From contig PFBJ01000019.1 of the NCBI GenBank assembly GCA_002778575.1, positions 773 to 20,179 of the forward strand: a stretch of DNA of 19,407 nt. Reading direction: 5' to 3'. The position numbers and the translations under genes were made by a program. Under the pieces are notes generated by a model. That model ran no database searches, was not told where the DNA came from, and saw only the letters and a program-made list of their open reading frames with translations. This DNA comes from Candidatus Kaiserbacteria bacterium CG10_big_fil_rev_8_21_14_0_10_49_17 (lineage in GTDB: Bacteria; Patescibacteriota; Minisyncoccia; Phycocordibacterales; JABMNX01). Shown here one piece after another: positions 84 to 11,602 of this stretch (its first letter is position 1; each line of letters opens with the position of its first letter).

Positions 84-117
84 GAAATCGACTCATTCAG
101 GCGAATGAGTCGATTTC
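84..117 (+). terminator. Perfect 13-bp inverted-repeat hairpin (aaatcgactcatt / aatgagtcgattt, loop caggcg) followed by tttcctt. Probably the intrinsic terminator of an upstream plus-strand gene outside the window
   Basis: Stem, loop and T-rich tail read directly. No coding sequence in 1-227. Confidence 0.45.
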
Positions 118-2246: not shown

Positions 2247-2495
2247 CTAGAGACTAAATACAGTCGCGCGGATGAAGTAAATAATGCCTTGAACTGAGAC
2301 AATAATGAACATCCCCACAATACCCCAGAGCATATGCCGCTTGCCGGTTGTTCTTCCTTCGTCTTGGTCAGCCTTCCAGATAAATACGGTTAAGCCCCAC
2401 ATGAAGAAGAAAAGGGCCACAGCAAAAAGGAGGTACGCGATCGGGTCAAGGATATTCACCACTATCTTCTCCATTAACTGGGAAGCATAGGACAT
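2247..2495 (-). CDS. Small two-TM membrane protein, paralog A of a tandem pilin-like (TrbC/VirB2-like?) family
   Basis: 82 aa, two hydrophobic helices separated by a charged loop (KADQDEGRTTGKRHMLWGIVGMFIIVSVQG). Shares the I/M-x-W-G...F-x-V-S-x-x-G motif with the three upstream paralogs. Only 5 nt after the previous gene. Confidence 0.6.
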   Translation of the reverse strand: MSYASQLMEKIVVNILDPIAYLLFAVALFFFMWGLTVFIWKADQDEGRTTGKRHMLWGIVGMFIIVSVQGIIYFIRATVFSL

Positions 2496-2500
2496 AGCGG

Positions 2501-2845
2501 CTACTTAATGTTCACTGTCGGAGCGTCAATCGTAGAGTCCTTACTGATGTTGAATGTATCCTGAAGCAGTCGCACCAATCCCCATACGGAGACCATCACG
2601 AAAAGCGCAATAATTCCCCATATCATGATATTGCGACCTTCTTCTTGTTTATCCGCATCTCCGGCTGAGAAGATGTACTTCATCAAGCCCCAGAAGAATG
2701 CCAAGACCGCAAGCGCAAGCACAATCGGAATCGCAGATGAGATGAGCGTTCCGACTGTCTGTAGTACTCCTTGCAGCCCTGTTGCTGCAAATGCAAACGA
2801 AGGAAGCGCAAGAAGTGCTGCAACGGCTAATGTAATTCTCTTCAT
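2501..2845 (-). CDS. Small secreted/two-TM membrane protein, paralog B of the pilin-like family
   Basis: 114 aa. Signal peptide (MKRITLAVAALLALPSFAFA), then hydrophobic segment, loop GDADKQEEGRNIMIWGIIALFVMVSVWGLVRLLQDTF, and a second hydrophobic segment. Same architecture as VirB2/TrbC-type pilins. Confidence 0.65.
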   Translation of the reverse strand: MKRITLAVAALLALPSFAFAATGLQGVLQTVGTLISSAIPIVLALAVLAFFWGLMKYIFSAGDADKQEEGRNIMIWGIIALFVMVSVWGLVRLLQDTFNISKDSTIDAPTVNIK

Positions 2846-2934
2846 TACTTTGAATTGTTTATGAATAACGACCTATTGTGTACATACATGGTAAGCGGAA
2901 CAACCGCCCCCCGCAATAGTCTAATGTGGATTCC

Positions 2935-3174
2935 TCAAAGAAGAAACGTGTTTTGTAAAAGCGTGAGAATGCCCCAGATTGAGACCATAAAGAAAAGAGC
3001 CACGACCCCCCAAATCATAATGTCTTTCGCTGACTTCCGGCTCTCCTCACTTCCAAATGAAAAGCTGTACTTTGCGATGCCGAAAAAGAGCCCGAGCACC
3101 GCTATACCAAGAAGAATCGGAATAGCTATATTTATAAGTTTAACAATACTGCCGACGAGGGTCGCGATGGTCAT
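2935..3174 (-). CDS. Small two-TM membrane protein, paralog C of the pilin-like family
   Basis: 79 aa. AKDIMIWGVVALFFMVSIWGILTLLQNTF is nearly identical in pattern to paralog B. 1-nt gap to the upstream gene. Confidence 0.65.
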   Translation of the reverse strand: MTIATLVGSIVKLINIAIPILLGIAVLGLFFGIAKYSFSFGSEESRKSAKDIMIWGVVALFFMVSIWGILTLLQNTFLL

Positions 3175-3175
3175 A

Positions 3176-3550
3176 TTATCGTATGCTCTTTATTGTTGTA
3201 TCTATCAATTCAGCAATTACCTTAGCGCCTATAAATACAGCGATGCCCACCAACGTCCACAGAAAGGTACTTTTTGCATTCTTGAGTTTTTCTTCACTTC
3301 CTTGTGCGGTGACAAACAGAAAACCAGCGTAAATGATAAAAAGTGCGGCAATTGGAAGTCCAATTACGATAATCGCATCGAGGAGGACATTAATAAATTG
3401 CGGAATGGTGGAAACGCCACTGAGCGGATTCTGCAATCCTCCTCCGGGACTTCCGCCAGTAACGTTTTCTGTCGCGGCTCCCGCTAAGAATGGCACGAGA
3501 AGTACGAGGCTTGACCCCGCTGTAATAGCAATACTGCGAAATAACTTCAT
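3176..3550 (-). CDS. Small secreted/two-TM membrane protein, paralog D of the pilin-like family. Start trimmed to the internal ATG at 3550
   Basis: The signal-peptide-like N-terminus MKLFRSIAITAGSSLVLLVPFLAGAA begins at the ATG at 3550, which also avoids overlap with the upstream SBP gene. Gly-rich loop, then two hydrophobic helices. Confidence 0.6.
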   Translation of the reverse strand: MKLFRSIAITAGSSLVLLVPFLAGAATENVTGGSPGGGLQNPLSGVSTIPQFINVLLDAIIVIGLPIAALFIIYAGFLFVTAQGSEEKLKNAKSTFLWTLVGIAVFIGAKVIAELIDTTIKSIR

Positions 3551-7932: not shown

Positions 7933-8295
7933 CTATTCTACCAAATCCTGAGGCTCTTCGCCAGCTTCAATAACTCCGTTTTCAGCGGTTGTACTCGCCT
8001 GAGGTTGTGGAATTGCCGTATCGGCGAATGTCTCTTGAATATCCTCGCCGGCTGTTGAAAATTGCTCCTGCAGGTCTGCGACAAATGCATTGAAGCCCGC
8101 GGAGCTTTCTGTCGTCTCACGTTCTGGAAATGTAACTGTCTCCAAACTACTTCTAAAATCAACAAGCCAAAACAAGAAAATAGCGAGCGTGATACTGCCG
8201 GCAACGCTAAATACTATAGTCTGCTTTTGATGCGCGGGTCGTGCCCGCACATTTTCAAGTATCTTAAAAAACATATTTTCGATACCGTTACGCAC
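7933..8295 (-). CDS. Hypothetical single-pass membrane protein with acidic C-terminal tail. The true start may be the ATG at 8274
   Basis: The ORF-track start at 8295 is GTG and overlaps the upstream gene by 8 nt. An in-frame ATG at 8274 gives MFFKILENV.... One TM helix (IVFSVAGSITLAIFLFWLV). No recognisable domain. Confidence 0.45.
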   Translation of the reverse strand: MRNGIENMFFKILENVRARPAHQKQTIVFSVAGSITLAIFLFWLVDFRSSLETVTFPERETTESSAGFNAFVADLQEQFSTAGEDIQETFADTAIPQPQASTTAENGVIEAGEEPQDLVE

Positions 8296-8920
8296 TGAGC
8301 AACACCACCTCGCCCGAGAGCGCTTCGGCCTCTTTTTGTTTAATGGTGAGTTTCTCTATCGGCTTCAGATTTTCAGAACCTGACTCCTTTAAAAATGTTT
8401 CGAGCGCTTTCTTCTCGCCGATCTCGCCGTAGTGAATCGGTACCACAATATGCGCTTCAAGCTTCACCGCGATGTCGTGCGCGTGCTTGGCGTCGAGCAC
8501 GCCATCTCCTCCGATTGGCACACACAAAACATGCACGGTATCGATGGATTCGAGTACTTTCGCGTCAATATCTTTTGTGCCAAGTGCCCCGAGAAAAAGA
8601 ATATCCATTCCTTCAAGTGTCACCTGATATATCGTGTTGGGTCTATTCGCGCCATTGTAATTTGAAATAGACGGAAAACCGTGCACAACGACACTGCCAA
8701 CTTCGTACTCACCGGGGCCAGTAATAACAAACGGTTCTTTTTCACCGTGCGTCACCTGCTCGACTCCATTCATGTCTGGGTCGTTGATAGAAATAAGCGC
8801 GACATCAGCGCCAAATCGAGCTCCTTTTAGTTTTGAATTCTTTGAAATGGGATTAAATGCAATCGTCGTTGAACCGACGCTCGCTTTAATACATTCTCCG
8901 CCATGGTAGGTGATAACCAT
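8288..8920 (-). CDS. Metallo-beta-lactamase-fold metal-dependent hydrolase (UPF0173-like)
   Basis: MVITYHGGECIKA...DP... N-terminus and overall pattern match the small MBL-fold hydrolase family. HxHxDH-equivalent region AKHAHDIAV. 210 aa. Confidence 0.7.
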   Translation of the reverse strand: MVITYHGGECIKASVGSTTIAFNPISKNSKLKGARFGADVALISINDPDMNGVEQVTHGEKEPFVITGPGEYEVGSVVVHGFPSISNYNGANRPNTIYQVTLEGMDILFLGALGTKDIDAKVLESIDTVHVLCVPIGGDGVLDAKHAHDIAVKLEAHIVVPIHYGEIGEKKALETFLKESGSENLKPIEKLTIKQKEAEALSGEVVLLSA

Positions 8921-8959
8921 ATGCGTGAGTATAGCAGATTTTATCCCTCAAACAGACTA

Positions 8960-8987
8960 TTGACACTAAACCTTCATTTCGTATAGT
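8960..8987 (+). promoter_or_regulatory. Near-consensus sigma70 promoter TTGACA-N16-TATAGT driving the GC-rich non-coding island
   Basis: TTGACA at 8960-8965 and TATAGT at 8982-8987, read directly. Predicted TSS about 8994. A minus-strand TATACT box (8933-8928) for the hydrolase gene lies just upstream, so this is a divergent promoter region. Confidence 0.65.
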
Positions 8988-8994
8988 TAAAGAG

Positions 8995-9299
8995 TACTGC
9001 TCTCCCAAGTGGTGCAACAGAGGGGCTGTCGTTCAGCCACCTGGCGGGACCATCGCAGCGGATGCTGTTCGACAGCCCTTCGCCACCTGTTCTTTAAATA
9101 CATTTTCTCTCGTACACCACCGGCGCCCACGCACCCCGACCCCCCGCCGATGGTGCACCCGGCCAGCCTAAGAGCACCCCCCCTCTTACGCTTGGCCCGC
9201 TGTCGGAACCTCCCTAGTTGCGTCCCCGCGCTACGGAAGCCTGGACCACCGGCAGCACCGGGCCGGCGCGCCAACACGCGCCGGTCCTTTTCCTTTTTT
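8995..9299 (+). ncRNA. Unidentified structured RNA, about 300 nt, GC-rich, bounded by its own promoter and terminator
   Basis: GC-rich island well above its surroundings. No ORF with protein-like composition in any frame (the 105-111 aa ORFs here are Pro/Arg/Ala-rich low-complexity artefacts). Long-range helix gggctgtcg(9023-9031)/cgacagccc(9071-9079). Strong promoter and terminator. Family not assignable by eye. Confidence 0.5.
9260..9299 (+). terminator. Intrinsic terminator: 11-bp GC stem GGGCCGGCGCG-ccaaca-CGCGCCGGTCC, then ttttccttttttg
   Basis: Read directly from the sequence. One G-U wobble in the stem. Confidence 0.75.
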
Positions 9300-9307
9300 G
9301 CACTTTT

Positions 9308-9337
9308 AATCAACTTAGTCATATGACTAAGTTGATT
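9308..9337. promoter_or_regulatory. Perfect 30-bp AT-rich palindrome aatcaacttagtcat|atgactaagttgatt, a candidate dimeric-protein operator
   Basis: 15/15 perfect inverted repeat centred on CATATG. Lies between the terminator of the first RNA and the promoter of the second. Confidence 0.45.
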
Positions 9338-9395: not shown

Positions 9396-9423
9396 TTGAC
9401 AAATTTTATATATATGATAGTAT
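9396..9423 (+). promoter_or_regulatory. Sigma70-like promoter TTGACA-N16-TAGTAT, preceded by an AT-rich UP-like region
   Basis: TTGACA at 9396-9401, TAGTAT at 9418-9423. TSS about 9430. Confidence 0.55.
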
Positions 9424-9429
9424 TTTACT

Positions 9430-9767
9430 ACCCTGCGGAGAACGGCACGCCTAAATGGTGCTCCGTCGCCCGAGGGTATAGTGCCGGTTCGCATTGCCGG
9501 CGAATAATAAATTAAAATGAGGACCGCACGTTATGGGTACGTGTATGGAACTCGATGAGGGGCTGAGGGAGCCCACAGACTGACACATGATCTTTATGTC
9601 GCCCCGCAACGGCGACGCCGCATTGAGGGAAAAAGGGCGAGCCTCTGAATTCCGGTATGCCTTAAAGCTACACGCTTTAGGATGTACGGCATACACGCCA
9701 CCGCCGAGCGCCCCTCGAAACGCATAGGCGAGATCAAAGAGCCCAAATCTTGGGCTCTTTTCTTTTT
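9430..9767 (+). ncRNA. Second unidentified structured RNA of about 340 nt. Alternatively a long structured leader/attenuator of rpsA
   Basis: GC-rich. Only tiny ORFs. Begins after its own promoter and ends at a strong terminator 140 nt upstream of the rpsA ATG. Several local hairpins, e.g. GCCGG-uucgcauug-CCGGC at 9486-9504. Confidence 0.45.
9737..9767 (+). terminator. Intrinsic terminator: 10-bp stem AAGAGCCCAA-atc-TTGGGCTCTT, then ttctttttg
   Basis: Read directly. Confidence 0.75.
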
Positions 9768-9789
9768 GTATATATTTTGTATAGTGCAT

Positions 9790-9807
9790 ATGCTCCGTAC
9801 GGAGCAT
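9790..9807. promoter_or_regulatory. Perfect 18-bp palindrome atgctccgtacggagcat immediately after a TATAGT -10-like box (9780-9785), in the rpsA upstream region. A second hairpin atctgc-caaaaa-gcagat lies at 9819-9836
   Basis: Read directly. Could be an operator, an RNA hairpin in the rpsA 5'UTR, or both. Confidence 0.4.
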
Positions 9808-9908: not shown

Positions 9909-11045
9909 ATGGACACAGATAAAACGAAAGAAAGAGAAGAAACAGTAGAGACCACCGAGGAGGAAGTTTCAAAAAAGAAACGGGAGTCATTCCTTGGGAC
10001 CCTACTTGAAAGTGGACCGACTCCCCCATCTGAGGGCGACCTCGTCGAGGGGCCGGTTATTGCTATCGAGCGCTCACGCGTCTACATCGATCTGCCGCCA
10101 TTCGGCACCGGTATTATTTACGGCAAGGAATTTATGAGTGCGCGCGATATTCTCCGAAAGGTGAATGTCGGTGACACTATTGCCGCTAAAGTCATCGACA
10201 CTGAGAACGAAGACGGCTACATTGAGGTCTCGCTTAAAGAAGCGCGCCAGGCGCTTATCTGGGCTGAAGCCGAAGATGTAATGAGCAACAAAAAGACCCT
10301 TGAACTTCCCGTGAAGGAAGCGAACAAGGGCGGTCTTATTATTGAATGGCAAGGTATTCAGGGGTTTCTCCCAGCGTCACAGCTCGGCCCTGAGCACTAC
10401 CCGCGTGTCGAGGACGGTGACAAAGACCGTATTCTTGATGAATTGAAAAAACTTGTCGGAGAAAAACTCTCCCTCTCAATCATTACTGCAGATCCAAAAG
10501 AGAACAAACTTATTTTCTCCGAAAAGGGGGCAGACCAAAAAGAGCGCGCTGAAATGATAGACCGGTACAGCATCGGTGACGAACTTGTAGGAGAGGTGAC
10601 CGGCGCGGTTGACTTTGGCATCTTCGTAAAACTGCAGGAAGGGCTCGAAGGGCTTGTGCATATATCTGAAATTGACTGGGCGCTTGTTGAGGATCCTCGT
10701 TCGCTCTACCGTGTTGGAGATACGGTGAAAGTGAAAATTATTGAGATAAAGGACGGCAAAATTTCACTTTCCATTAAAGCGCTCCGTGAAAATCCATGGA
10801 AGAGCGCGTCGGAGAAATACAAGAAAGATGCACGAGTGAAAGGAGTTATCATCAAGTACAACAAGCACGGCGCACTTGCCTCAATCGAAGAAGGTGTTGC
10901 GGGGCTTGTGCACATCTCTGAATTTGAAGACGAGCAGGAATTGCGCAACACACTTGAACTTGGGCGTACCTACGACTTCGTGATTACTCTTTTTGAGCCG
11001 GATGAACAGCGCATGACGCTTTCATACAAACAGGCACAAGAATAG
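9909..11045 (+). CDS. rpsA: 30S ribosomal protein S1, short four-S1-domain form
   Basis: Repeated S1/OB motifs (GDLVEGPVIAIERSRVYIDL..., GDTVKVKIIEIKDGKISLSIKA, GVIIKYNKHGALASIEEGVAGLVHISEF). Acidic N-terminus. Start taken at the first ATG (9909) after the upstream terminator and promoter; the ORF-track start at 9750 is a TTG inside the terminator. Confidence 0.75.
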   Translation: MDTDKTKEREETVETTEEEVSKKKRESFLGTLLESGPTPPSEGDLVEGPVIAIERSRVYIDLPPFGTGIIYGKEFMSARDILRKVNVGDTIAAKVIDTENEDGYIEVSLKEARQALIWAEAEDVMSNKKTLELPVKEANKGGLIIEWQGIQGFLPASQLGPEHYPRVEDGDKDRILDELKKLVGEKLSLSIITADPKENKLIFSEKGADQKERAEMIDRYSIGDELVGEVTGAVDFGIFVKLQEGLEGLVHISEIDWALVEDPRSLYRVGDTVKVKIIEIKDGKISLSIKALRENPWKSASEKYKKDARVKGVIIKYNKHGALASIEEGVAGLVHISEFEDEQELRNTLELGRTYDFVITLFEPDEQRMTLSYKQAQE

Positions 11046-11149: not shown

Positions 11150-11602
11150 ATGGTCCACGCAATAATCGCTGGGAGTACCCAGTTTCACTGGCCAACAATG
11201 GAGGAGTGCACAAGCCCTCTTTCCGCGGCCGAAGAACAGGAAATTCTTGAACGAATACACTGCTACCGGCGCATCAATGATATAAGCAAAAAACGCATTG
11301 CTGCACTTTTTGAAAAAACTGAGGCAATGACGGTTCAGGCAGAAGTGCTCTTTGAAAGCCCTCTGCCGCAGTACGAACAGCACGAACTTGAGGCGATTGA
11401 AGAGTTTGCCCGTAAGTGGCTTAACCCGCACCTTATTGCAATACGAGCACCATTCGTGTTGTGGGTACACACCGAAGGCTTGTTGCGCTGCTGGATTCAC
11501 GAAACGCGTGCCTACCGGTATGTAAATTTTATCGGCTTCATCGCACCTCTCGGTATCTCTGACAAAGAATCACTTACCCTTCTGGGATGGCCCTCCACAT
11601 GA
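11150..11602 (+). CDS. Hypothetical protein, 150 aa, no recognisable domain
   Basis: SD AGAGGTG 6 nt upstream of the ATG. The stop codon lies in the loop of the terminator hairpin at 11589-11613. Protein-like composition. Confidence 0.5.
   Translation: MVHAIIAGSTQFHWPTMEECTSPLSAAEEQEILERIHCYRRINDISKKRIAALFEKTEAMTVQAEVLFESPLPQYEQHELEAIEEFARKWLNPHLIAIRAPFVLWVHTEGLLRCWIHETRAYRYVNFIGFIAPLGISDKESLTLLGWPST

What the first reader, a model, noticed from the sequence alone, without database searches (positions are those of the whole stretch)
9308..9337. Perfect 30-bp palindrome between the two RNA genes
aatcaacttagtcatatgactaagttgatt is a 15+15 perfect inverted repeat, centred on CATATG and AT-rich. 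That is far longer than expected by chance. It has the look of a high-affinity dimeric DNA-binding-protein operator, for example an HTH or Xre-type repressor, and could coordinate the flanking transcription units. It could also be the half-site pair of a recombinase or a partition-type site.
Basis: seen in the sequence. Interest (0 to 1): 0.55.

Follow-up and report, generated by a model that had tools for sequence, protein, structure and literature searches.

The report
Perfect 30-bp palindrome, function unproven
A real, far-from-chance 30-bp perfect palindrome sits between two unannotated RNA-like genes of an uncultured Kaiserbacteria (CPR) bacterium; it most likely binds a protein as DNA, but nothing available proves this, and it is absent from all relatives.

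Summary
Window 9308-9337 is a perfect 15+15, zero-spacer palindrome; about 2e-5 are expected per window.

It lies 8 nt after the T-tract of a strong terminator ("RNA1") and 58 nt before the -35 of the next promoter ("RNA2"). This is in the S1-MBL-gyrA spacer of a Ca. Kaiserbacteria genome.

What it does cannot be settled.
- All four assemblies holding it are 100% identical across the whole spacer.
- The nearest relative (67% aa) lacks the entire RNA1-palindrome-RNA2 block.
- No regulator gene lies in about 29 kb.

Against a terminator:
- It has no U-tract and 27% GC.
- It is the only one of 94 long palindromes from 80 related loci plus this window that combines low GC with no A/T run.

For a DNA-level protein site:
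- A second perfect palindrome (84-117) shares 11/15 centre-aligned arm positions (AATCRACTYA-N10-TRAGTYGATT).
- That palindrome also sits about 45 nt upstream of a -35.
- The 18-bp core occupies operator-like positions at Phd/YefM-PIN and TetR genes in unrelated metagenomes, though it also occurs as a terminator stem and inside coding repeats.

parS, dif, CIRCE and oriC readings fail. Best guess is a trans-factor binding dyad (about 0.35). Rivals are a transcript hairpin or insulator, and a neutral inverted duplication. Interest is modest.

The parts
9308..9337 (.). Perfect 15+15 zero-spacer palindrome (I3), AATCAACTTAGTCAT|ATGACTAAGTTGATT. GC is 27%. The hairpin free energy is -16.0 kcal/mol as RNA and -11.1 as DNA.
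8960..8987 (+). Promoter-like site of the upstream unit 'RNA1' (TTGACA-16-TATAGT, 11/12). It lies back-to-back with the promoter of the leaderless MBL gene.
   Evidence: sequence
8994..9299 (+). 'RNA1': a roughly 300-nt C-rich, GC-rich (0.64-0.68) unit with no credible ORF. Fold z-score is -5.7. It ends in a hairpin at 9260-9287 (-23.6 kcal/mol) followed by the T-tract TTTTCCTTTTTT at 9288-9299. No Rfam match.
9396..9423 (+). Promoter-like site of the downstream unit 'RNA2' (TTGACA-16-TAGTAT with an upstream TG, 10/12). The palindrome ends 58 nt upstream of its -35.
9430..9770 (+). 'RNA2': a roughly 340-nt unit with a terminator at 9736-9760 plus a T-tract. Fold z-score is -2.9. No Rfam, tRNA or tmRNA match and no credible ORF. 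It could alternatively be a long leader of the S1 gene.
84..117 (.). Sibling palindrome (I2), GAAATCGACTCATTC-AGGC-GAATGAGTCGATTTC. It shares 11/15 centre-aligned arm positions with I3, giving the common form AATCRACTYA-N10-TRAGTYGATT. It lies 44 nt upstream of the -35 (TTGACT, 161-166) of the band-7 gene. In strain variant L190 it lies about 10 nt after tRNA-Leu(tag).

Best explanation
The palindrome is a double-stranded-DNA binding site for a symmetric (dimeric or tetrameric) protein encoded elsewhere in the genome. It sits in the untranscribed gap between two strongly promoted RNA-like units, centred about 108 bp upstream of the RNA2 start.

A protein bound there could modulate the RNA2 promoter from an upstream position. 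It could also act as a boundary or roadblock between the two units.

The same protein may bind the related dyad at 84-117, about 96 bp upstream of the band-7 operon start. The inferred recognition pattern is AATCRACTYA-N10-TRAGTYGATT.

Shown: the symmetry, the position, the lack of terminator features and the sibling site.

Inferred: that a protein binds at all, and what it does.
For: 1. Perfect 30-bp dyad with no spacer, far beyond chance.
2. It lies after a strong terminator (11-bp GC stem of -23.6 kcal/mol plus TTTTCCTTTTTT) and before the next promoter. It is therefore probably little transcribed.
3. It is not terminator-like. The scan did not flag it, and its 3' flank is CGGTCACC. Of 94 perfect palindromes with arms of at least 13 nt in 633 kb (80 related Paceibacteria loci plus this window), 74% carry A/T runs. 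This is the only one with GC <= 0.30 and no run.
4. Palindrome I2 (84-117) matches 11/15 centre-aligned arm positions. It is the best of 93 comparators, and the next best reaches 9/15. Only 0.7% of random cross-locus pairs reach 11/15, and those are mostly orthologous hairpins. The half-site spacing is identical and the flanks are not homologous.
5. Both dyads lie 44-58 nt upstream of a -35 hexamer.
6. The 18-bp core CTTAGTCATATGACTAAG lies 6-15 nt upstream of Phd/YefM antitoxin starts in 22 metagenome contigs. It lies at TetR gene starts in 15 more. So this kind of sequence is used where autoregulatory proteins bind.
7. In relative L060 a different 17+17 perfect palindrome overlaps the -35 of a 12/12 promoter of a GC-rich non-coding unit in the same spacer.
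Against: - No DNA-binding protein is encoded in the window or in about 8 kb more of the contig. The lineage-specific neighbour hyp150 is an ORFan with an unusable model (pLDDT 35).
- The site overlaps neither promoter.
- Natural operators are rarely perfect over 30 bp.
- Only two related sites were seen in about 29 kb, and none in 80 relatives at up to 3 mismatches.
- The I2/I3 similarity was noticed post hoc (roughly p = 0.02).
- The same 18-mer is also a terminator stem (L090) and a coding repeat in IS66 orf1, so its occurrences elsewhere are heterogeneous.
- I2 could simply be the terminator of tRNA-Leu.
- Long palindromes in this spacer are evolutionarily labile: L060 and L054 do not share theirs.
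Confidence: 0.35

Rival explanations
1. Transcript-level hairpin. The palindrome is transcribed by polymerases that read through the RNA1 terminator. It folds into a 13-bp stem with an AUAU loop. It then acts as a back-up terminator or insulator protecting the RNA2 promoter, or as a 3' exonuclease barrier.
For: - It starts 8 nt after the RNA1 T-tract, at the 3' end of a strongly promoted unit.
- Its RNA hairpin energy (-16.0 kcal/mol) equals that of the RNA2 terminator stem (-15.0).
- In this clade long perfect hairpins are very common, about 1 per 6.7 kb. Most sit at gene 3' ends, including zero-spacer ones.
- The sibling I2 lies about 10 nt after tRNA-Leu in L190, with no other terminator in between. 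Other tRNA genes of the organism are followed by AT-rich hairpins.
Against: - There is no U-tract on either strand, and GC is 27% without a GC-rich core. It is unique among the 94 palindromes in lacking both, and the terminator scan did not flag it.
- A strong canonical terminator already precedes it, so little read-through is expected.
- Self-complementarity through the 4-nt loop is not needed for an RNA hairpin.
Confidence: 0.25
2. Neutral by-product. A single template-switch or inverted-duplication event copied 15 nt in reverse complement next to itself. The palindrome has no function and has simply not yet decayed.
For: - Zero spacer and 100% symmetry are exactly what one such event produces.
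- The element is confined to one species-level lineage.
- There is no polymorphism anywhere in the spacer, which is consistent with recent origin.
- Long palindromes in the same spacer are not conserved even between related species L054 and L060.
Against: - The similarity to I2 at identical register is not expected from an independent random duplication.
- Neutral origin does not explain why both dyads sit at comparable distances upstream of promoters.
Confidence: 0.2
3. Member of a small dispersed palindromic repeat family (REP-like), or a recombination or insertion target associated with genome rearrangement.
For: - Two related palindromes occur in intergenic DNA within about 29 kb.
- I2 sits 6-10 nt from a strain-specific breakpoint. 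In the window strain the outer end of a roughly 250-bp inverted repeat flanking a 3.9-kb segment abuts it. In L190 a tRNA-Leu with an HNH gene lies there instead.
- I3 lies inside a block (RNA1-I3-RNA2) that the nearest relative lacks.
Against: - Only two copies are known, and their arms are only 73% alike.
- No RAYT, IS200/605, integrase or Xer gene is present in the region.
- The breakpoint at I2 lies outside the palindrome, not in its centre.
- The dif reading conflicts with divergent gene orientation and a skew running from negative to positive. The arm matches the conserved XerD arm at only 7/11 positions (my own comparison from memory of the consensus).
Confidence: 0.1

Closest known systems
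Palindromic operators of type II toxin-antitoxin (Phd/YefM-PIN) and TetR-family autoregulators
   Same: Perfect AT-rich dyad symmetry. The identical 18-bp core CTTAGTCATATGACTAAG lies 6-15 nt upstream of Phd/YefM antitoxin starts (22 contigs) and at TetR gene starts (15 contigs) in metagenomes.
   Different: In the window no TA or TetR gene, nor any ORF, lies next to the site. The site is 58 nt upstream of a -35 rather than over the promoter. Its outer 6 nt per arm differ from all those loci. Binding in those loci is itself inferred from position only.
Rho-independent (intrinsic) terminators, including the bidirectional perfect hairpins typical of Paceibacteria
   Same: A stable perfect hairpin at the 3' end of a transcription unit. 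Such hairpins with arms of 13-25 nt are frequent in 80 related loci.
   Different: No U/A tract, a GC-poor stem and no GC core. A canonical terminator already stands 8 nt upstream.
Far-upstream or two-turn-spaced dyad sites such as NikR (GTATGA-N16-TCATAC) or other ribbon-helix-helix tetramer operators (from my own knowledge)
   Same: The conserved outer blocks are separated by more than a helical turn (AATCRACT-N14-AGTYGATT). This suggests a dimer of dimers rather than a single HTH dimer.
   Different: No sequence relationship, and no RHH or NikR gene was seen. This is a resemblance only and was not tested.
REP / dispersed extragenic palindromes
   Same: Short intergenic palindromes with related sequence in more than one place, located next to gene ends and variable regions.
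   Different: Only two copies are known. There is no conserved GTAG-type head and no RAYT gene. Copy number in the genome cannot be tested here.

Membership tests
Intrinsic terminator | Stable stem-loop at the 3' end of a transcription unit | tested here: met
   13-bp stem with a 4-nt loop, -16.0 kcal/mol as RNA. It starts 8 nt after the RNA1 T-tract.
Intrinsic terminator | U-rich tract directly after the stem (at least 5 T in 8) and a G+C-rich stem | tested here: not met
   The 3' flank is CGGTCACC on the + strand and AAAAGTGC on the - strand. Stem GC is 27%. The scan did not flag it. It is the only one of 94 clade palindromes with low GC and no A/T run.
Transcription-factor operator (dimeric repressor) | Dyad symmetry | tested here: met
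   15+15 perfect.
Transcription-factor operator (dimeric repressor) | Overlaps or abuts the -35/-10/+1 of the regulated promoter | tested here: not met
   It ends 58 nt upstream of the RNA2 -35, with its centre at about -108. It lies about 335 nt downstream of the RNA1 start.
Transcription-factor operator (dimeric repressor) | A cognate DNA-binding protein encoded nearby or elsewhere in the genome | tested here: inconclusive
   None was found among the genes of the window and of about 8 kb more of the contig.
Transcription-factor operator (dimeric repressor) | Further sites of the same motif (a regulon) | tested here: inconclusive
   One related dyad at 84-117 (11/15 per arm, same spacing). 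There are no others in about 29 kb.
Transcription-factor operator (dimeric repressor) | Conservation of the site relative to its flanks in relatives | not testable with these tools
   All copies come with 100% identical flanks. The nearest relative (67% aa) lacks the whole block.
ParB parS centromere | 16-bp TGTTNCACGTGAAACA-type sequence (consensus from my own knowledge) near parAB or the origin | tested here: not met
   The sequence bears no resemblance to that consensus. No ParA or ParB gene was found. There is no DnaA-box cluster.
Xer dif site | Two 11-bp arms around a 6-8-bp centre, a conserved XerD arm, and a location at the terminus (convergent genes, skew running from + to -) | tested here: not met
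   Genes diverge from this spacer and the skew runs from - to +. The arm matches TTATGTTAAAT at only 7/11 (consensus from memory). No Xer gene is nearby.
HrcA CIRCE | TTAGCACTC-N9-GAGTGCTAA (consensus from my own knowledge) upstream of chaperone genes | tested here: not met
   The arms and the spacing differ (sequence). No groE or dnaK gene is nearby.
Type II TA operator | Palindrome within about 20 nt upstream of an antitoxin start codon | tested here: not met
   No ORF of 25 aa or more with any family match lies between 8921 and 9910.
REP-like dispersed palindrome | Many copies per genome and an associated RAYT | tested here: inconclusive
   Two related copies in about 29 kb, and no RAYT seen. 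The full genome was not available.

The most novel reading that the evidence does not exclude
I3 and I2 are the first two visible sites of a lineage-specific dyad motif (AATCRACTYA-N10-TRAGTYGATT). An unidentified regulator of a Kaiserbacteria (CPR) bacterium binds it from about 100 bp upstream. It controls, among other things, an unannotated non-coding RNA unit (RNA2) that, like its neighbour RNA1, has no counterpart in Rfam or in relatives. This would be a small regulatory circuit around new RNAs in an organism group with very few known regulators.
Probability: 0.15. Interest if true: 0.5.

Novelty: new member of a known kind. Interest (0 to 1): 0.3.

Why it matters
If a protein does bind here, this would be one of very few defined regulatory sites in Patescibacteria. 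It would also give a handle on two strongly promoted, unclassified RNA-like genes.

As it stands, this is a well-verified sequence feature without a demonstrated role. It is confined to one lineage, in a clade where long perfect palindromes are common and short-lived.

Tried and rejected
- **Rfam, tRNA and tmRNA.** Rfam at gathering and at E <= 10, ARAGORN, and Rfam on 17 related loci and on the extended contig. Nothing covers the palindrome or the two flanking units.
- **Homologues of RNA1, RNA2 and the spacer.** nhmmer against 80 related loci gave only self hits. A profile built from conserved S1-upstream blocks of relatives does not hit the window.
- **Conservation test.** It is impossible. 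L001, L002 and L192 are identical over the spacer, and the three SNPs between assemblies lie in gyrA and ftsA.
- **Origin of replication.** There is no DnaA-box enrichment: 5 observed against 3.25 expected, with one in the spacer. The skew simply follows gene strand.
- **Extra half-sites.** None beyond I2, I3 and one match inside gyrA.
- **Metagenome scan of the 18-mer core.** It returned 77 contigs in heterogeneous contexts: TA operator, TetR, IS66 coding repeat, URO-D upstream and terminator stem. No single family emerges, and no hit shares the window's outer arms.
- **Viral scans.** The 16-mer core gave 28 contigs, which I did not examine further. The dyad pattern gave 16 contigs in about 5 homologous groups, near chance.
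- **Phage and plasmid BLAST of the RNA1-I3-RNA2 block.** No match.
- **Extended homology between the I2 and I3 flanks.** None.
- **RNA1-RNA2 duplex.** Not better than shuffles.
- **Candidate partner hyp150.** It is lineage-specific and lies next to S1. It is an ORFan, and the single-sequence model has pLDDT 35, so no fold search was attempted.
- **Band-7 homologues to test conservation of I2.** Only one homologue exists, at 36% identity.
- **Palindromes upstream of strong promoters.** 4 of 23 promoters in the S1-MBL spacers have one, against 2.3% of random positions. The control is not restricted to intergenic DNA, so I do not rely on this.
- **LexA-type motifs.** The Bacteroidetes motif CTAA-N5-TTAG (PMC8565304) has the opposite arm order and a different spacing.

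Full report
**Observation**

Window 9308-9337 reads AATCAACTTAGTCATATGACTAAGTTGATT. It is its own reverse complement, with 15-nt arms, zero spacer and CATATG at the centre. About 1.8e-5 such palindromes are expected per window. In 300 Markov shuffles the longest zero-spacer palindrome had arms of at most 12 nt (mode 7), and the runner-up in the real window has 9-nt arms.

It is identical in three other assemblies: ENA ERZ27293400 (L001), Logan SRR6240789 (L002) and JGI 3300004210 (L192). It is therefore not an assembly artefact.

**Organism and setting**

The gene content is typical of Patescibacteria. It includes gyrA, S1, pth, lepB, a hisS-like gene, ybeY, ftsA, ftsZ, trxB, tandem pilin genes and an MBL-fold hydrolase. 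One window protein is 100% identical to an NCBI protein from a 'Candidatus Kaiserbacteria bacterium CG10_big_fil_rev...' assembly.

The palindrome lies in the 990-bp spacer between the divergent MBL gene (8288-8920, minus strand) and the S1 gene (9909-11045, plus strand). The order S1 <> MBL-gyrA-methyltransferase-SBP is conserved in nearly all of the 80 species-level relatives fetched. The spacer, however, varies from about 216 to 2400 bp.

Within the window's spacer there are two units, each bounded by a promoter and a terminator.
- 'RNA1' has the promoter TTGACA-16-TATAGT at 8960-8987 and a terminator hairpin at 9260-9287 followed by TTTTCCTTTTTT.
- 'RNA2' has the promoter TTGACA-16-TAGTAT at 9396-9423 and a terminator at 9736-9760.

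RNA1 is clearly GC-rich; RNA2 is only slightly above background. Both fold better than shuffles, with z-scores of -5.7 and -2.9. They carry no ORF with any family match. They match no Rfam family, tRNA or tmRNA.

The palindrome begins 8 nt after the RNA1 T-tract and ends 58 nt before the RNA2 -35.

**Relatives**

The nearest relative (L003, 67% aa identity in MBL and 81% in S1) has a spacer of only about 190 bp, with none of RNA1, the palindrome or RNA2. nhmmer finds no homologue of either unit or of the inter-unit DNA in any of the 80 loci. The dyad motif is absent from them at up to 3 mismatches.

The copies that do exist have 100% identical flanks. The only SNPs between assemblies fall in gyrA and ftsA.

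**Is it a terminator-type hairpin?**

Long perfect palindromes are common in this clade. There are 94 with arms of at least 13 nt and loops of at most 5 nt in 633 kb (80 related loci plus this window). Most sit at gene 3' ends, and 74% carry A/T runs at the arm ends.

The window's own terminators, after S1 and after trxB, have this form. The palindrome does not.
- Its stem GC is 27%.
- It has no A/T run longer than 2.
- Its 3' flank is CGGTCACC.
- It is the only one of the 94 that combines GC <= 0.30 with no run, and the terminator scan does not flag it.

As RNA it would still be a -16 kcal/mol hairpin, as stable as the RNA2 terminator stem. It also sits at the end of a transcription unit. A role as back-up terminator or insulator therefore remains a serious rival. 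However, a strong canonical terminator stands immediately upstream (-23.6 kcal/mol plus a U-tract).

**A related second site**

The window holds another perfect palindrome at 84-117: GAAATCGACTCATTC-AGGC-GAATGAGTCGATTTC. Aligned by the dyad centre it matches the finding at 11 of 15 arm positions. The two share the form AATCRACTYA-N10-TRAGTYGATT.

It is the best match among 93 comparators, and the next best reaches 9/15. Only 0.7% of cross-locus pairs reach 11/15, and those are mainly orthologous hairpins. The flanks are unrelated.

This site lies 44 nt upstream of the -35 (TTGACT, 161-166) of the band-7 gene. Both dyads would thus be centred roughly 96-108 bp upstream of a start site. The start sites are estimates.

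In a strain variant (L190) the same palindrome lies about 10 nt after a tRNA-Leu(tag) gene. It could therefore equally be that tRNA's terminator. The similarity was noticed post hoc and rests on two sites. I treat it as suggestive only.

No further half-sites occur in the roughly 29 kb of this organism that could be reached.

**The core elsewhere**

The 18-mer CTTAGTCATATGACTAAG occurs in 77 JGI metagenome contigs with 25-72% GC. By context:
- 22 have it 6-15 nt upstream of a Phd/YefM antitoxin gene followed by a PIN toxin gene;
- 15 have it at the start of a TetR-family gene;
- 10 carry it inside IS66 orf1, where it encodes an LSHMTK repeat;
- 7 have it upstream of a URO-D-like gene;
- the rest are other, smaller groups and single contigs, among them L090, where it forms the stem of A/T-flanked terminators.

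None shares the window's outer arm. This shows that such a sequence is the kind used at autoregulatory operator positions. It does not point to one protein family, and palindromes as a class are over-represented in any large collection.

**Other readings tested**

- No DnaA-box cluster.
- The sequence is unrelated to parS or CIRCE.
- Gene orientation and skew are the opposite of a terminus, which argues against dif.
- No recombinase, ParAB or transcription-factor gene lies in the window or in 8 kb more of the contig.
- The lineage-specific neighbour hyp150 is an ORFan with an unusable structure model.
- No phage or plasmid similarity.

In relatives, other long palindromes sit upstream of strong promoters of GC-rich non-coding units in the same spacer. 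In L060 one overlaps the -35 of a 12/12 promoter. In L005 one lies 72 nt upstream of a -35. These are unrelated in sequence and are not conserved even between L060 and its relative L054. This argues that such palindromes turn over quickly.

**Verdict**

The palindrome is real and non-random. The best single explanation is a DNA-level binding site for a symmetric protein encoded elsewhere. Its action would be on the RNA2 promoter from upstream, or as a boundary between the two units (confidence about 0.35).

The rivals are:
- a transcript hairpin acting as back-up terminator or insulator (about 0.25);
- a neutral inverted duplication (about 0.2);
- a REP-like or recombination-associated palindrome (about 0.1).

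None can be excluded without the full genome, transcript-end data or binding assays. It falls within known kinds of element, and the interest is modest. The more unusual objects here are the two flanking unclassified RNA-like units.

Noticed in passing
window 8960-9299 and 9396-9770: Two tandem units bounded by promoter and terminator ('RNA1', C-rich, about 300 nt; 'RNA2', about 340 nt). They have no ORF and no Rfam, tRNA or tmRNA match, and the nearest relative lacks them. Other Paceibacteria carry unrelated GC-rich promoter-driven units in the same S1-MBL spacer, in the same orientation (L005, L011, L025, L036, L054 with two, L060); terminators were confirmed only in L005 and L060.
   Followed up: partly
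window 84-117: A second perfect palindrome (15+4+15) shares 11/15 centre-aligned arm positions with the finding. It lies 44 nt upstream of the band-7 -35, and about 10 nt after tRNA-Leu(tag) in strain variant L190.
   Followed up: yes
L188 5502-5750 and 9607-9851 (right copy ends at about window 78): Inverted repeats of about 250 bp (84-96% complementary) flank a 3.9-kb segment carrying PPDK_N, PEP-utilizers and His_Phos genes. The outer end of the right copy abuts palindrome I2. Strain variant L190 has tRNA genes and an HNH endonuclease gene there instead. This may be an invertible or mobile segment.
   Followed up: partly
window 9790-9807: A 9+9 perfect palindrome, ATGCTCCGTACGGAGCAT, lies just after a TATAGT -10-like hexamer (9780-9785) upstream of the S1 gene. 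In relatives a different, long hairpin lies upstream of the S1 gene (about 30 nt from the start in L044, by my estimate). Examples are GGTGGAAAATTTTCT..AGAAAATTTTCCACC in L044/L079, with pairing-preserving variants in L035, L068 and L078. This may be an S1 leader structure.
   Followed up: no
window 8921-8960; L003, L035, L049, L068, L078, L080 upstream of MBL: The MBL-fold gene appears leaderless, with a TATACT -10 about 7 nt before its ATG. Matching -10-like hexamers (tatact or tataat) recur in relatives. In several of them a 13-20-bp perfect hairpin directly abuts that -10 at the -35 position.
   Followed up: no
window 11150-11602: A 150-aa ORFan is inserted between S1 and pth in this lineage only; relatives have S1 directly followed by pth. 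Its only full-length database match is the identical NCBI protein from a Ca. Kaiserbacteria CG10 assembly, apart from two weak partial hits to repeat-rich proteins. The structure model is unusable.
   Followed up: partly
L083-L159 (metagenome contigs): The 18-mer CTTAGTCATATGACTAAG is conserved 6-15 nt upstream of Phd/YefM-PIN operons in 22 contigs, most of them 67-69% GC, and at TetR gene starts in 15. This looks like conserved operators. In IS66 orf1 it encodes LSHMTK-type repeats with 11-bp-spaced TATGACTAAG units.
   Followed up: partly
L190 940-1140: Between tRNA-Leu(taa) and tRNA-Lys(ctt) there are two tRNA-like fragments beginning (A)CATCCGCCTATAGCTG, followed by tRNA-Lys(ctt), whose 5' end has the same motif. 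These may be pseudo-tRNA remnants, next to an HNH endonuclease gene.
   Followed up: no
window 2247-3480 (minus strand): Four tandem small genes match the T4SS_pilin family (PF18895), next to a solute-binding protein gene.
   Followed up: no
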